Shown: positions 20,641 to 64,000 of the stretch, one piece after another
Layout: the number at the start of each line of letters is the position of its first letter
How positions within the stretch are numbered: the stretch's first letter is position 1
Origin: the human T2T-CHM13v2.0 reference genome, Homo sapiens
Direction: 5' to 3' (one strand)
DNA: 64,000 nt
Assembly: GCF_009914755.1 (NCBI RefSeq)
Contig: NC_060947.1
Notes under the pieces: model-generated
Seen by the model: only the letters and a program-made list of their open reading frames with translations
What the model was told of the DNA's origin: nothing
Database searches by the model: none
Made by a program: the position numbers and the translations under genes

Positions 20641-21048
20641 CAGGGATTTGCTGGTCAATGTGTAATAACTGGCTCTACAGGCAGGGGAAAACCAGTGTGT
20701 GGCAATTTCTTTCATGTTAATATTTCTATTATGTGACATCATATTTCTATTATGTGAATTTCACATAATTTCTATTATGTGAATTTCACATAATTTCTAT
20801 TATGTGAATTTCACATAATTTCTATTATGTGAATTTCACATAATTTCTATTATGTGAATTTCACATAATTTCTATTATGGGAAATTCACATAATTTCTAT
20901 TATGTGAATTTCACATAATTTCTATTATGTGAATTTCACATAATTTCTATTATGTGAATTTCTATTTAATGTGGCATCACTGAATACAGAGTTGGGAAAA
21001 GATGCACACTTTCAGCTCTCATGAACCAGTTGTAGCAAGCTCCAGCCA
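20641..21048 (-). mobile_element. MER63A-like element carrying an internal minisatellite
   Basis: CAGGGATTTGCTGGTCAATGTGTAATAACTGGCTCT at left, GTGGCATCACTGAATACAGAGTTGGGAAAAGATGCACAC..GCTCCAGC at right. Confidence 0.75.
20743..20963. repeat. 25-bp palindromic minisatellite, ~9 copies
   Basis: Unit ATTATGTGAA-T-TTCACATAAT-TTCT; TATGTGAATT recurs every 25 bp from 20751 to 20951, one variant copy at 20876. Confidence 0.97.
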
Positions 21049-57122: not shown

Positions 57123-58124
57123 TATTTCCCTGCAATTTCTTCAAATATCACATAATAAGGCACCACCACTTTTACAATGGATGGTATACTTTCATCCCAG
57201 GAGAACCCAGGAACTGACAGGCAGAGGCTAGGGAGAACTCTGTGTCACAGCCTCAAACAGGACTTTCTCTCACTTCAGTTAACACATGCCATGTGGCAGG
57301 TGGTGGGGCGAGGAAGATTCAATAGCAGCCCTCCTTCAGCAATGGGAGAGATGCGATTGTCACTTGGCTTGGCAGAAACCTCACTCTTCTCCTTCCAGGC
57401 AAGAGTCTCCTCACTTGATAGGCATTTACTCTAGCAAAGAAATGGTGGCAAGCTGATTTCCAGATGTTCTCCTAGGTTGGGTATGAGTCACATGTCGGAT
57501 CTTATTTCAACAGCACAGTCTGCTAACTCTGGAGAGTTGAGGGTTGTTTTTTTTTTTTTTCCTTTTGCTCTTCAGAAAAGTATTCCTTACTGAAAAATGA
57601 AAGCTCTCTATTTGTGTCAACAGGGCTAGCTTTCAGCAAAACTGAGAGTTAGGTGAGAAGTGTGTCTTTGGCTGCTTTTCATTTTCCCTTTCCATTTCTC
57701 TTCCCTCTGCATTCCCAGATCCCATGGTTTATTCCCACAAGGCCTTAATCTTTTTTCACTTTTTAATTTTTTAATGTAAGATACAAGTTTATAAATTTTA
57801 AGGTGTTGCCCTTTAAGATCTATTTTCCCAAATAAACTTGGCAGCTATTGGGAGATAGGATCTATGTGTGTCCAAGAATTCCCCTGGGGCTTGGGAGGTC
57901 TCTCAGATGATTCTAGATATTGCCCATTCTGCCAAACCCATTTGAGGTTTGGACTCCCACAGCAAATGCCATCAAAGGCCTTCCAGCTTGCTGCCTGACT
58001 CCAGTCCCTGACCCTACTCTGTGTTGTATTTTTTTAATTCAAATGCAGTGGGTCAAAAGAAACCAGAAAAGTCAAAGAAATCACCAACTGTAAGACCTGA
58101 GTGGGAGCTGTTTGTTAATTAGGA

Positions 58125-58330
58125 TTTAATGAGCAATTACTATGAATCAGGAAATGTCCTTGGCACTTTCCCACTCCTAACCTCATTTAACACTTCCAGT
58201 ACCCCTAGGAGGCGAGTATTTCCATCCTGATTTTATAGGTGAGGAAACTGTGGCTCAGTGCAGTCTTGTCACTTACACAGCTACTAAGCAGCACAGCTTA
58301 TGTCTGAAGCCCTAATCTATACTCTGGGCC
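58125..58330 (-). mobile_element. MIR SINE
   Basis: CTCATTTAA..ATTTTATAGGTGAGGAAACTGTGGCTCAG. Confidence 0.8.
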
Positions 58331-58574
58331 AATGGACATGAGCCAGAGCCGGGAGTAATTACTTCCCTGTATCTTTATAAAATGCCTATTAATCATCCTA
58401 TTCATGAACACTTCATGGATAGCTACTCTATGCCAGGCACTGTGCTATGGACTGGATGTACTACTTGAATAACTAGAGTTGGCCTAGAGTGACCAACTCA
58501 CCCAGTTTGCTTGAAATGTGGCATTTTGAGTGCTAAAACCAGGGTTGCACCTTCAAGTTACTTACAGTAACATT

Positions 58575-58733
58575 CCTTCCCATCTCTGCTTCAGTGATGC
58601 TATGCTGATAAACTGAAATTTGCCATGGTGGGAGTGTTTATTTTGCATAAATCACTAAACACTACAAATCAGGGCTTTTTTTTTTTCACTTTCCCAGGAA
58701 AGCTGATTATAAGCATTTATCAGCACACCACCA
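58575..58733 (+). mobile_element. MER63-family fragment
   Basis: GCCATGGTGGGAGTGTTTA..CTACAAATCAGGGCTTTT..CATTTATCAGCACACCAC. Confidence 0.8.
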
Positions 58734-58791
58734 TTTACAGTCTAGTAAGAAATTCATCCAAGTAGATAAGCAGTATTTATATTTAAAATAG

Positions 58792-59204
58792 TGATACAGT
58801 CTGGATGTTTGTCCCCTCCAAATCGCATGTTGAAATGTGATCTCCAGTGCTGGAGGTGGGGCCTAATAGAAGATGTTTGGGTTATGGGGATGGATCCCTT
58901 ATGAATGGCTTAGTGCCATCCTCACAGTAATGAGTTCTCAGTCTAATAGTTCATGTGAGAGGTGGTTGTTTAAAAGAACCTAGCACCTCCCTCCCTCTCT
59001 CGTTAGTTCTCTCACCATGTAATAGGCTGGCTCCTCCTTTGTCCTCTGCCATGATTGGAAGGTTCCTAAGGCCCTTACCAGTAGCAGATTCCAGCACCAT
59101 ACCTCCTGTACAGCCTTCAGAACTGTGAACCAAAGTAAACATCTTTTCTTTATAAATTACCCAGTCTCAGGTATTTCTTCATAGCAATGCAAAATGGACA
59201 AACA
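58792..59204 (+). mobile_element. MSTB-like MaLR solo LTR
   Basis: TGATACAGTCTGGATGTTTGTCCCCTCCAAATC..TTTATAAATTACCCAGTCTCAGGTATTTCTTCATAGCAATGCAAAATGGAC. Confidence 0.92.
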
Positions 59205-59221
59205 GAGTATCTCATGCACTA

Positions 59222-59458
59222 TAATGACAAAAGCTAATGTGTTGAGAACTAATGATGTACTAGGCACTATTTTGTGTGCTTTAGATAGATTTAGTCTTTA
59301 CAACAACCCTAAGAAGTAAGAACTATTGTTATCTCCATTTTGCAGCTGAAGAAACTGAAGCTTAGAGAGTTTAAGTAAGTTGCCCAAAGTCATACAACTA
59401 ATAAAGTAGTAAAGCCAGGACTCAAACATCAGTGTGTCTTATTCCAAATCTGTACTCG
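59222..59458 (-). mobile_element. MIR SINE
   Basis: CCATTTTGCAG..GAAACTGAAGCTTAGAGAGTTTAAGTAAGTTGCCCAAAGTCATACA. Confidence 0.88.
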
Positions 59459-60704
59459 AGGTAGCCTATGGTGACAGATTTCAGGATGAACAGCATAGTC
59501 GTGGCTGCTGCAGGTGGGCCGTTGAGACAAAGAGGAAATGGGTCAGTTTTGTGAGGTGGTGTTGTAACACACATAAACACACACAACTTAAAACAGTGTA
59601 GGGGATACACTAAGTGTTATATTGTTTGCTGCCATTATTGTTACTATGGTTGTGTTGTGGCCCTGAGGAAAGCGAGTCAGAGTTGAAGTGCATAACAGTG
59701 ACATAGGGCAGTTGGGCCTTTCCCTACTGGTACTCAAGTGTGGCTGTAGGAGCATGCTGAAGACAGCTGGTTTGAAAGTGAGGCCAGAAGGTCATGCTAG
59801 TTGTGTTTAGGGCTTTCAATCTGCTACTGAGATCTACTGGAGTAGCCTTTGTGGCCTGAAGTTGTATCTTTCTGACTCAAGAATATTAAAATCCATTATG
59901 GAAAAGACTTATAGAGAAGTCCTCTGTCACTGTAAGAGCTCCAAGGCCATTCCCCAAAGCTCTTGACTTGCTATTTAATCCAGGTTATCTCTAATAACAA
60001 GAATGGGCCAAGACAACCTCAAATTTCTTAGGCCAGAGGTTTTACTCTCTCCTAATTTAGTTTCTCAAGGATAATTCTTCTTGGTCCTTGGCATCTTCTG
60101 ATTGGAAAATCACATGCCACACATCCCCCCTCATCCCACTCTTATTACTTGGAAAATCCATGTTCTCTGCCTTACCTCTGCATTCTGCTGCCAGGGTTGT
60201 TTGTACCCTCTAGGGTCTAACTCATCTGTCGTGTGAATACCTGGGCCAAGAGCTGTTCTGGAGCATAGAGGAAGAATGGCTGCAGCCTTCTCATGAATGT
60301 GGTTGGGAGATCATTCCAGTACTCAAGGCTAATTTTTCTGCAAGCATGTACCCATTAGAGTCCAACATCTAGGCTTTCTGAACATTTGTAGAAGCTACTT
60401 TGTAGGAGGAATTCACCATGCCCCCAAACTCCCCCCACAAAAGCCCTGATACTCCTTGTGAGGAAAAAAACAAAAGAAAACAAAACAGGATGCTATATCC
60501 CTGCTGGGATTTCTGTGGCTGCAATATGCTTACTCCTTTGATTGCTGACCTCTCAGAACACAGGGCTGACCTCTGATAGGCCTACAACTTTGACATAGAG
60601 AGCAAGAAATGGAGGCTGACTTTCCACGTGGGTCTCGACCAGTCTGAATGTGCTGTTCACTTTTGGGCCTATGTGATGCCTGATACCTCGTGTGTACAGC
60701 TCGG

Positions 60705-60958
60705 TAGTTGACAGCATGGATTCCAGAGTAGACTGTGGATTCAAATCCTGGCTCCACCACTTCCCAGCTTTGCATCCTTGGGGAGACTACTTAATTTTCT
60801 GTGCTGTCATTTTAGCAACTATAAAATAAAGATAATTGTAATAATGATAAATATGATTATTATGAGGGATAAACATGATAATCCATGTGAACTTCTAGAA
60901 TAATACCTAAGCATATAGTAAGCACTCAATTAATGTTAGCTAGTATTATTACTCTTAT
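60705..60958 (+). mobile_element. MIR SINE
   Basis: GGATTCAAATCCTGGCTCCACCACTT..GTAAGCACTCAATTAATGTTAGCTA. Confidence 0.88.
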
Positions 60959-60967
60959 TATCTTCAG

Positions 60968-61335
60968 CAGGGGTCAACAAACTGTTTCTTCTATGAATGG
61001 CCAGATCGTAAATATTTTAGGCTCTGCAGGCCAAGAGCAAATGCAAGGATATTATGTAGGTGCCTATATAATAATAAGGAAAACAAATTTCTACACATTT
61101 TTATCAATACAGTTCCAAAAATAATAATGACCGAGTAGAATCTATGGGTCTACTAATGATAAAAGTGGATTTTTTTGGAATAACATTTCATTTAATTGGG
61201 TTTCAAACTTAATATTCCTTATCATTAAATTGGTTGCAAAGATTTAATCAGTTAAAACCATTCTTAACTTGTGAGCCAAACAAAAACAGACAATGGCTTG
61301 ATGTGGGTCTATGAGCCATAGTTTGCTGACCCCTG
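60968..61335. mobile_element. MER58 (MER58D-like) hAT-Charlie MITE
   Basis: TIRs CAGGGGTCAACAAACT / AGTTTGCTGACCCCTG; partial TSD ATCTT. Confidence 0.9.
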
Positions 61336-62344
61336 ATCTTATACAACCTTGATGACAAAAGGTTTGTAATCTACTTGGAGGATATCCTAATTTATTCCCA
61401 TCATCTGAGGATATCCTAATTTATTCCCATTATCCCATTATCACAAGAACACCAAGTCCAGGCAGTTCTGAGCCATTTGAAGCAGCACTACCTCTGGGCA
61501 GACATTGAAAAGCCCAGAGGTGGCTTTCTTGAACCAAGGCACAGCCACCCAAGATGTGTCCATGTTGCCTGATAAAGTACTGGCCGTATCAGATTGGGAA
61601 CCCCAGGTCAATCAGAGTGGTCTGTTAATATGTGATGTTTGTGGAGCATCCCTGCTACTTTTCACCCTATATCACCACACTTACTAACCTCCAGGCTGAC
61701 ATTATCAAGAGGAAAAAAAGGATTTATTTTGTTCACATCATAGCTTATCCTTCTAGCAGCTAAAGCCACTTTTAATCCTTGCCTCTTAGGTCTAGATAAC
61801 CCCATAGCACTGAAACGAATGCCATCAAAAATAACTATAGAAGCCTACCTAACTTGAGGACCATGGCTACATCACTGTCATTTTTTGTGCCTGTTTCCCT
61901 GGGAAGGAAATATCCCTGCCTGTGTACTACCAACTTTGTGTAGCTGTAGAGGTCACTGGCCACCAAGGCTAACCTAGAAATGCAGAGATGTTGCTTCAAG
62001 GGACTCCAGTCCCCATGACTTGTAGTCACAGACGACCACAGACTAGAGCAGCTAAGAGATCCAACAGCTCAGCTTTACAAAATGAAGAGGGTCATCTTCT
62101 TTGAGCAGTTCAGCCTCTCCATTGTGGGTGTAGTAGGCCACATTTTGAACTATTTCCATCTGTTATTGATTATATATCAGGCTTCAGGATGGCTGGGAGG
62201 ATACTCTGCCTTTACAAGCTGAGTCAATGCCCTTTCTAATGTCTTCTGCTCATGCTGTGGTCAAAGGCACCCTATAAAACTTATTTGTGTGTATGCTACA
62301 TAGCTCAAGGAATACTCCCAGGGTCCTCCTCTATCCTCTTTTTA

Positions 62345-62580
62345 ACAAAAACAACTAACATTCATAGATAACTTACTAAGTGCTAGACACTATACAAAGC
62401 ATTTTATAGAGATTACCATATTTAATCTTCACAAGCACCCTGTGATCTATGGGATCTTTTTAATCTCTATTTTTATAGATGAGGAAATTGTGGAATAAAA
62501 AGTTTAGCAGTTCATCCAAACTGTCAGCTAAATAAGTGGCTGAGGCAGAATTCAAACCAGGTTTAAATAACTCGCTCAAG
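62345..62580 (-). mobile_element. MIR SINE
   Basis: TTTAATCTTCACAA..TTTATAGATGAGGAAATTG..GAATTCAAACCAGG. Confidence 0.85.
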
Positions 62581-63014
62581 GCAACTCAACTTGTATATAA
62601 TGGAATCAAGTTGTAACCAGGCCCTTTCAAGCTTTTAAGTAATTTTGCCACTTTCTGCTCTGTTGCCTGGATTATAAATTCTCTTGCTCTACCCAGCCCA
62701 TTTGGACTGGCATTTAGATTTAATTGTTTGACTGGCTTTGGTTTCAGTTTCTCCCCAGAATTTTGCCTTTTGGATTGCCCGCCTCTGTTCCACACCCCGC
62801 AGGCTGCAGTCCAGCTCTGCCCTATCTCTTCACCAATGGAAGTTTTAGTGATAGTATACTCCAGTCTAAAACCAATGTCTTAGAGCTCCAACTGTCTGGG
62901 AGGAGAAATTCAACATTATCTCAGAAAAAAAACTTGACTAAGGGAGAGATATGGAGGCAGACCCACCCTGGTAGATTCTGCAGGAGACCTTCTGGGTTAT
63001 ATGGTCCCAAGTAA

Positions 63015-63222
63015 AATAATAACATTAATCCTATGCTCTAAGTACAGGGATAAATACTTGACACTAATTGTTTCATTTAAATCTTCATAATAATCCTTTG
63101 AGGTTAGTACTATTTTGATCTCTAAGATATTAGGAAACAAATGTTTACATAAATTAAGTGACTTATCTAATGTTGAAGAGCTGGGTTTTGGATTCAGATC
63201 TCTCTGACCGTAAGTCCTACAT
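63015..63222 (-). mobile_element. MIR SINE
   Basis: TTTCATTTAAATCTTCATAATAATCCTTTGAGG..TTAAGTGACTT..GAGCTGGG. Confidence 0.7.
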
Positions 63223-63229
63223 CACTAAA

Positions 63230-64000
63230 CTCTACAATTAGCAGATACAATCCAAAGCAGGCTGCAAATGGATGCCTACTTGTAGCAGCACTTGGATGAG
63301 ATCCAGGCCCATGCAGTGAGAGCTCTGAAAGGCCGAGAATGTCAGAGTTGCCTACAATATGAGAGTGGATTCTCATATTTCCCAGCTGGAAAGGCTCAAA
63401 CACAAGTAATTCTCTTGTGCTATGATCCCACCGTGCTGGCCACTGTGATTCATTCAAGTCAAAACCTTGAACATGGTCTTTTTAGCAGTGGCTCCATCTC
63501 TGATACAACATCTCTAATGAGTCATCATTTATGATAGCTGCTTCCAAGTCATGGAGTAAACAAGTAGATCCAAGAGCCTTCCATATCCACTTCAGATTAC
63601 TGAACACCTGAGGAATACCATCTCACAGTGAACTATTTCTAGTATATTCCCTTTTAATGACCCCACACATTCCTGGCAGTGGCAGATGTCTTGAAAAAAA
63701 TGTATCATTCATTGTATACTCAGCCTATCTACTCCAACTGTGGTTATTTTGTTTATCAAAAGAATCTTCTGGTACCAAATTATCCGCCTATGTGATTTCT
63801 GATTATTACCTGCAATTATCATTCTGATTTTAAAGGGCACTGTTCAAGGCCCTTCACATTAGTATCCATTTGTCAACTTCCTACCACTAGTAGACACAAA
63901 GGTCAGATTGGAGATATCAACCAAGTACTCACTTGAGGAGTAAATCTCCTATTTCACCTTTTACTAATAACACACTGGTTTCCTCTCCTTACTATACAGA
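63230..64000 (+). mobile_element. Possible Gypsy protease/RT N-terminal remnant G
   Basis: LADT..MDAYL, AVRALKGR (cf. VxALDGR), VILFIKR..IRLC near 63742-63793. Confidence 0.4.

What the first reader, a model, noticed from the sequence alone, without database searches (positions are those of the whole stretch)
59470..63010. Remnant F: all domains of a sushi-like element still readable in order
Seen: gag, zinc knuckle, PEG10-like protease tail (LVLGIF*LENHMPHI cf. VVLGVRWLSTHDPNI), RT, RNase H, deleted integrase, GPF and chromodomain-like region within 3.5 kb, interrupted only by two MIRs and a MER58. Inference: best template here for reconstructing the extinct element; stops throughout argue for a fossil and not a domesticated gene, but the orthologue could be better preserved in other lineages.
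Basis: partly seen in the sequence, partly recalled or inferred. Interest (0 to 1): 0.7.

Follow-up and report, generated by a model that had tools for sequence, protein, structure and literature searches.

The report
Fossil chromovirus retrotransposon on human X
This stretch of the human X chromosome is the broken remains of a jumping gene, likely of the family from which mammals took the placenta genes PEG10 and RTL1; it runs about 2.5 kb further than first reported, keeps its integrase region, lies among several similar relics, and likely does nothing today.

Summary
Supported against shuffled and reversed controls: protease tail (60060-60200), RT (about 60330-60715 and 61336-61646, split by a MIR plus a MER58-like element) and RNase H (to about 62130). 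Not supported: gag and zinc knuckle (z at most 0.9) and the GPF motif at 62620 (z about 0). The chromodomain at 62830-63000 is borderline (z 2.5). The integrase is not deleted: it lies at 63232-65084, followed by a GPF/SH3 region at 65199-65332 (z about 6-7), beyond the window. One colinear element of about 60.06-65.5 kb explains this, with 440 unexplained bases at 62580-63020. It has 19 stops and 17 frameshifts in 849 aligned codons, and no LTR pair was found. RT is nearest to fish and fungal chromoviruses, not ERVs. Three short ORFs from other genomes match it: two run into the same MIR, so those copies are broken too. At least three more such fossils lie within 85 kb, and one sits beside RTL9. 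No Pfam hit, and no paper on the locus found in my searches. A new member of a known kind.

The parts
59440..60050 (+).
   Evidence: z at most 0.9; protease N-half z -0.1
60060..60200 (+). Aspartic protease C-terminal tail and following linker, PEG10-like
   Evidence: 16 of 48 identical to PEG10 ORF2; 0 of 200 nulls; weak with the profiles
60200..60715 (+). Pre-RT linker and RT N-terminal half (to fish reference residue 333), broken
   Evidence: outside ORF P0222 covering it matches the fish RT at E 2.6e-5
60716..60955 (.). MIR-like SINE inserted inside the RT (name recalled; ends approximate)
   Evidence: 12 other local copies; the same junction in P0222 and P0224
60968..61335 (.). MER58-like hAT DNA transposon (name recalled), 16-nt terminal inverted repeats, imperfect 8-nt flanking duplication
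61336..61646 (+). RT C-terminal half (resumes at fish residue 334), active-site motif altered, small tandem duplication near 61380-61440
61647..62345 (+). RT connection, RNase H (best part 61953-62126) and linker, broken
62345..62580 (.). MIR-like SINE (name recalled; ends approximate)
   Evidence: 14 other local copies
62580..63020 (.).
63020..63230 (.). MIR-like SINE (name recalled; ends approximate)
   Evidence: 9 other local copies
63232..63996 (+). The element continues past the window end (locus L043, window places): integrase C-terminal part 64980-65084, GPF/SH3 region 65199-65332, possible chromodomain start to 65473 (weak)
   Evidence: rve z 6.2 and 5.4; H2C2 alone z 0.6; 0 of 100 nulls; beyond the window: GPF z 7.4; SH3 z 6.4 and 5.7; chromo core z 1.9-2.0
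63997..64000 (.). First bases of a TA-flanked element with imperfect terminal inverted repeats (Tc1/mariner type, recalled) holding an Alu; it runs on to window place 64977, past the window end, and splits the integrase

Best explanation
This is a heavily broken + strand pol region of a Ty3/gypsy retrotransposon, likely a single chromovirus (sushi-like) insertion spanning about 60.06-65.5 kb that likely died before the placental mammals spread and likely has no function now. Shown: protease tail, RT, RNase H, integrase and GPF/SH3 remnants in canonical order, cut by three MIR-like SINEs, two DNA transposons and one unexplained 440-nt piece. Inferred from the family: the live element was transcribed, packaged in Gag particles, reverse-transcribed and inserted by its integrase, with a C-terminal chromodomain steering insertion into silent chromatin (recalled), which would explain why several relatives lie close together here. 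Inferred: a MIR landed in the RT early, and the copy has decayed neutrally since; gag and LTRs have decayed below detection or were lost.
For: An automated chain alignment of a chromovirus Pol profile over 59800-65700 scores 69.5 bits (25 reversed controls: max 27.2; 28 real flank tile-strands: max 24.2), links RT, integrase core, integrase end and GPF in order, and skips 62580-63020. In a 154-kb two-strand block scan the top hits for RT C-half, both integrase blocks and GPF all fall in this element, in order. The RT stops at fish residue 333 before the MIR/MER58 insert and resumes at 334. Between fish residues 850 (63930) and 878 (64995) the spacing left after discounting the TA-flanked insert is 81 nt, 27 codons. 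The part after the third MIR starts in the RNase H-integrase linker, roughly where the part before the second MIR ends. RT C-half z is 5-19 against the nearest chromovirus proteins and at most 1.4 against 12 human loci, mostly ERV pol; tree places it with fish sushi-like Pol and RTL1. 19 stops and 17 frameshifts in 849 codons; longest stop-free + frame in the element's own sequence 111 codons.
Against: No Pfam match. Human RTL proteins give no tblastn hit here at E < 0.5. The 440-nt piece does not fit one element and has a borderline chromodomain-plus-tail score (z 2.5), spaced from its GPF-like motif about as in the fish protein. The downstream chromodomain is not significant alone (z 0.8; 1.9-2.0). 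Integrase zinc finger not significant alone. Tree support near the fossil is low (69 and 51). In pairwise tests RNase H is significant with only 1 of 23 Pol references (fish copy 1; one ERV frame reached z 3.2). Only one vertebrate chromovirus record (two copies) was available, and the mixed profile uses it as its frame.
Confidence: 0.8

Rival explanations
1. Two elements: one with its integrase deleted that ends in GPF plus chromodomain at about 63000, followed by a separate 5'-truncated copy holding integrase and GPF.
For: Chromodomain-plus-tail score at 62829-62999 (0 of 100 nulls; 0 of 150 and 1 of 150); 8 of 17 identity to a fish tail; a GPF tripeptide at 62620 with near-correct spacing; the region holds many copies.
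Against: GPF/SH3 at that site z -0.1 and -0.7; combined GPF plus chromo z 1.8 against 5.6 downstream; core alone and tail alone not significant; one borderline result among about 50 targeted tests; the two halves abut in Pol coordinates, which two elements would do only by coincidence. A nested 3' fragment of another copy inside the single element remains possible.
Confidence: 0.12
2. A once-domesticated RTL-like gene, lost in humans but intact in other mammals.
For: P0222 keeps about 95 RT codons open; RTL9 lies about 0.47 Mb away and RTL4 about 1.5 Mb away (open frames in L040 and L042; names from position, recalled).
Against: P0222 and P0224 read into the same MIR inside the RT and change frame at different places; P0223 is 64 aa. 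Only 4 related short ORFs among 6 hits in 1.84 billion representatives, one being the human piece itself. No gene annotated (hub table). Published T2T capsid survey found no new intact gene (10.1101/2023.09.17.558119, section 5).
Confidence: 0.04
3. A fossil of another LTR lineage (ERV, or a non-chromovirus gypsy such as the family behind MamGyp-int).
For: MamGyp-int and X1-X4_LR are gypsy internal sequences known in human (PMC5753468, passages); their sequences could not be compared here.
Against: ERV frames score at null level (some cover the segment only partly); GPF/SH3 of Tf2-1 type present; tree separates it from ERVs and from more distant gypsy proteins.
Confidence: 0.03
4. Chance resemblance in old intergenic DNA.
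For: No Pfam hit; each piece is only 16-36% identical to the fish reference.
Against: Scores far above reversed, shuffled and real-flank nulls, in colinear order; independent support from P0222.
Confidence: 0.01

Closest known systems
Vertebrate chromoviruses (sushi-like Ty3/gypsy, Metaviridae); reference here P0102, a catfish record
   Same: Order protease-RT-RNase H-integrase-GPF/SH3; RT 34% identical over 187 columns; sister in the tree (support 69).
   Different: Dead; gag, LTRs and a clear chromodomain not detectable. Sushi-ichi itself was not available for comparison.
RTL/SIRH domesticated genes (PEG10, RTL1, RTL3, RTL4, RTL9)
   Same: Same lineage by tree (weak support); protease tail best matched by PEG10 ORF2; same Xq neighbourhood as RTL9 and RTL4.
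   Different: No open frame, no capsid; keeps integrase and GPF remnants. RTL1 matches the RT less well than fish or fungal Pol (z 1.4-4.4).
Human gypsy repeats in Repbase: MamGyp-int, X1_LR to X4_LR (PMC5753468)
   Same: Ancient gypsy internal-region relics in the human genome.
   Different: Identity with any of them untested; this copy has no BLAST-level relative elsewhere in the genome (low sensitivity).

Membership tests
Metaviridae (Ty3/gypsy) | pol order protease-RT-RNase H-integrase (PMC3670739, introduction passage) | tested here: met
Metaviridae (Ty3/gypsy) | RT groups with Ty3/gypsy, not retroviruses | tested here: met
Metaviridae (Ty3/gypsy) | gag upstream of pol | tested here: inconclusive
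   no signal at 57500-58800 or 59440-59900; decay or loss cannot be told apart
Metaviridae (Ty3/gypsy) | flanking LTR pair | tested here: inconclusive
   no direct match between 55.5-60 kb and 65.05-68.8 kb tiles; age may hide it
Chromovirus clade (sushi-like) | RT clade membership | tested here: met
   nearest sequences all chromovirus Pol; local support low, 69 and 51
Chromovirus clade (sushi-like) | GPF/GPY (SH3_Tf2-1) region after the integrase core | tested here: met
   65199-65332, z 7.4, 6.4 and 5.7
Chromovirus clade (sushi-like) | C-terminal chromodomain | tested here: inconclusive
RTL/SIRH domesticated gene | long open frame with capsid domain | tested here: not met
RTL/SIRH domesticated gene | purifying selection across placental orthologues | not testable with these tools
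   no mammalian genomes held; only three unnamed short ORFs, two running into the MIR
MamGyp-int / X_LR repeat families | DNA match to the Repbase or Dfam consensus | not testable with these tools
   no repeat library held
Endogenous retrovirus | RT closest to retroviral RT | tested here: not met

The most novel reading that the evidence does not exclude
[quoted passage not shown] An undescribed graveyard of four to eight independent pol fossils survives there, with integrase and GPF regions that the RTL genes lost, and RTL9 and RTL4 are the tamed survivors of that same local pile-up, not copies moved in later.
Probability: 0.3. Interest if true: 0.55.

Novelty: new member of a known kind. Interest (0 to 1): 0.32.

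Why it matters
Mammals have no active Metaviridae, and only rare fragmented fossils are reported (PMC3670739, section 14). The RTL/SIRH progenitor is known from proxies in other vertebrates, and the domesticated genes dropped the chromodomain (10.1101/2023.09.17.558119, section 9); one review argued for an extinct retrovirus as source (PMC10604271, passages). A non-domesticated copy in the human genome with RT, RNase H, integrase and GPF in chromovirus order is direct evidence that such an element was in the mammalian ancestor's germ line. If the local cluster is exceptional genome-wide, it bears on why most RTL genes are X-linked and whether they arose from separate insertions. The fossil itself is likely inert, so the interest is evolutionary and moderate.

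Tried and rejected
Pfam scans of whole frames and pieces: no relevant family. PDB sequence search: only chance antibody hits, E at least 0.21. Word-based protein search with a fossil frame: 0 of 7993 candidates. tblastn with human RTL proteins: nothing here. First gag model wrongly held a non-gag sequence and was rebuilt without it; no gag either way. An integrase zinc-finger end at 62270-62340 seen by eye: not significant. A DNA match of 62580-63020 to the LDOC1 locus is a gappy alignment to an Alu: rejected. No DNA match of that piece to the 3' ends of other copies. Identity values are inflated by lenient scoring and were not used. Apparent pol remnants in the RTL3, RTL5, PEG10 and RTL1 3' regions were not tested further. 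Genome-wide searches with the fish protein were saturated by ERV-like hits and did not list this fossil; the SH3 family search gave 4 weak hits, none here: how common such fossils are genome-wide stays open. LTR pair not found.

Full report
Approach. Standard tools saw nothing: no relevant Pfam family in 3 whole frames, 18 pieces or 11 further fossil pieces, no credible PDB hit, 0 of 7993 word-search candidates, and no tblastn hit in the finding from human RTL frames. I therefore collected chromovirus-type Pol proteins through RTL1, built a profile from 116 of 121 of them (five over 1520 aa left out) and a second profile of 39 rows framed on a catfish record, P0102 (its domains mapped), and ran a frameshift-aware aligner over the window plus 60 kb upstream and 30 kb downstream. 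Controls were reversed, shuffled and real flanking DNA. Places over 64000 or under 1 are window places outside the window.

What is there. Plain hmmsearch already gives RT at 61339-61512 (E 2e-5) and integrase at 63789-63896 (E 0.001), with no hit of 4 bits or more on reversed DNA. Frameshift-aware scores are 49.1 bits for RT (61336-61622) and 38.2 for the integrase core (63707-63930), against a control maximum of 25.8. The fish Pol aligns from 60132 to 60715 (residues 110-333) and resumes at 61336 (residue 334) across the MIR and MER58-like inserts. Targeted tests support the PEG10-like protease tail, both RT halves and RNase H, with the limits that the protease is clear only against PEG10 and RNase H leans on the fish reference.

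Gag and zinc knuckle: five tests in 59440-59900 and two further upstream give z at most 0.9, while the model scores a broken capsid elsewhere at 79.9 bits. GPF at 62620: 46 of 100 nulls reach it, whereas 65199-65332 is reached by 0 of 100 (z 7.4) and by 0 of 150 in two more null sets. The integrase is present: the linker-to-core stretch aligns at 63232-63993 (0 of 100 nulls; the same linker-zinc model in 62560-63035 is reached by 90 of 100), is cut by a TA-flanked inverted-repeat element at 63997-64977, and continues at 64995-65084 with 81 nt, 27 codons, left between the anchors. An unguided chain alignment scores 69.5 bits (null maximum 27.2 of 25) and joins RT, integrase and GPF while skipping 62580-63020. 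That 440-nt piece between two MIRs is single-copy and unexplained. The downstream chromodomain is also weak alone (z 0.8-2.0).

Lineage. The RT C-half scores z 5-19 against fish and the nearest fungal chromovirus proteins, 1.4-4.4 against five RTL1 proteins, and at most 1.4 against 12 human loci that are mostly ERV pol, some covering the segment only partly. In an RT tree of 38 rows the fossil and P0222 join the two fish copies (support 69), then RTL1 (51), apart from ERVs (five short locus frames left out). It is a chromovirus-type Metaviridae fossil; closeness to sushi-ichi itself was not tested.

Dead or alive. Five segments give 19 stops and 17 frameshifts in 849 codons; the RT active-site motif is altered and two integrase catalytic positions appear lost, one in a weakly aligned part. 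A full search of 1.84 billion representatives with the RT N-part gave 6 hits: the human piece, three short related ORFs and two unrelated repeats. P0222 is open over about 95 RT codons and matches the fish RT at E 2.6e-5, but starts in another frame and ends in the MIR; P0224 also reads into the MIR. They look like orthologues from other genomes (inference; the records are unnamed), so the MIR break predates their split from humans. MIR and MER58 ages, about the time of or before the placental radiation, are recalled. No LTR pair was found.

Surroundings. Three more stretches exceed the chain null, all on the - strand: 5023-8 (50.4), 16844-14995 (38.8), 75957-75700 (39.7); 9839-9679 (26.9) and 21354-21265 (23.1) do not clearly; 0 of 28 flank tile-strands exceed 24.2. 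The finding has DNA-level matches to some (16843-16164, E 4e-8). Breaks are not shared in the five pairs compared, and the copies at 76 kb and 16 kb differ most at third codon positions (43, 45 and 25 of 81; difference 0.23 against a null maximum 0.21), while the finding and the 16-kb copy show no such pattern in RT. This favours separate insertions of related subfamilies over duplication of a dead copy, weakly. An RT fragment also lies about 210 nt before the RTL9 frame on the opposite strand (score 9.1, null maximum 0.2 of 100).

Literature. Seen as passages or named sections: PMC5753468 (passages: human gypsy traces MamGyp-int, X1-X4_LR); 10.1101/2023.09.17.558119 (abstract, sections 5 and 9, passages; no mention of CHRDL1 or PAK3; supplements closed and may list capsid fragments); PMC3670739 (passages, section 14); PMC10604271 and PMC12839241 (passages). 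Searches for CHRDL1 + PAK3 + retrotransposon gave 0 papers and Xq23 + gypsy + retrotransposon 2, neither on this locus by title and abstract start; searches listed none either. Older subscription papers and repeat databases were not searchable, so the locus may already be annotated there.

Verdict. Observation partly confirmed; a dead chromovirus pol of about 5.5 kb, most likely one element (0.8), in a small local cluster. New member of a known kind, interest 0.32.

Noticed in passing
L040:4064-4230, - strand (chrX 108,898,063-108,898,229): Chromovirus-type RT fragment about 210 nt before the RTL9 open frame, opposite strand; score 9.1 against null max 0.2; DNA match to the finding E 0.006.
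   Followed up: partly
window 16865-14254, - strand: Second pol fossil: RT, RNase H start, integrase zinc finger and core end, GPF-like DNA match at 14414-14254; possible capsid piece at 19830-19585 (z 2.6).
   Followed up: partly
window 5023-4628 and 114-8, - strand: RT and RNase H fossil, chain score 50.4; no insert at the place where the finding has its MIR.
   Followed up: partly
window place 76999-75700, - strand (beyond the window, L044): RNase H and integrase zinc-finger fossil, 39.7 bits.
   Followed up: partly
window 9839-8456, 22390-21256, 31471-31144 (- strand); -5075 to -6450 (- strand); 72356-72451 (+ strand): Weaker pol-like pieces near or below the null; may be further copies.
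   Followed up: partly
window 58793-59205: Multi-copy LTR just upstream (MST/MaLR type, recalled), unrelated to the fossil.
   Followed up: no
L020 (chr15, G000:C15:69118632-69118841): Gypsy-like RNase H fossil with stops, 47 bits with the Pol profile; lineage not determined.
   Followed up: no
L015 (G000:C18:5400521-5400762): Broken RTL-type capsid (DUF4939) on chr18; used only as a positive control.
   Followed up: no
window 20743-20967: Tandem repeat of 25-nt units, 94-100% alike.
   Followed up: no
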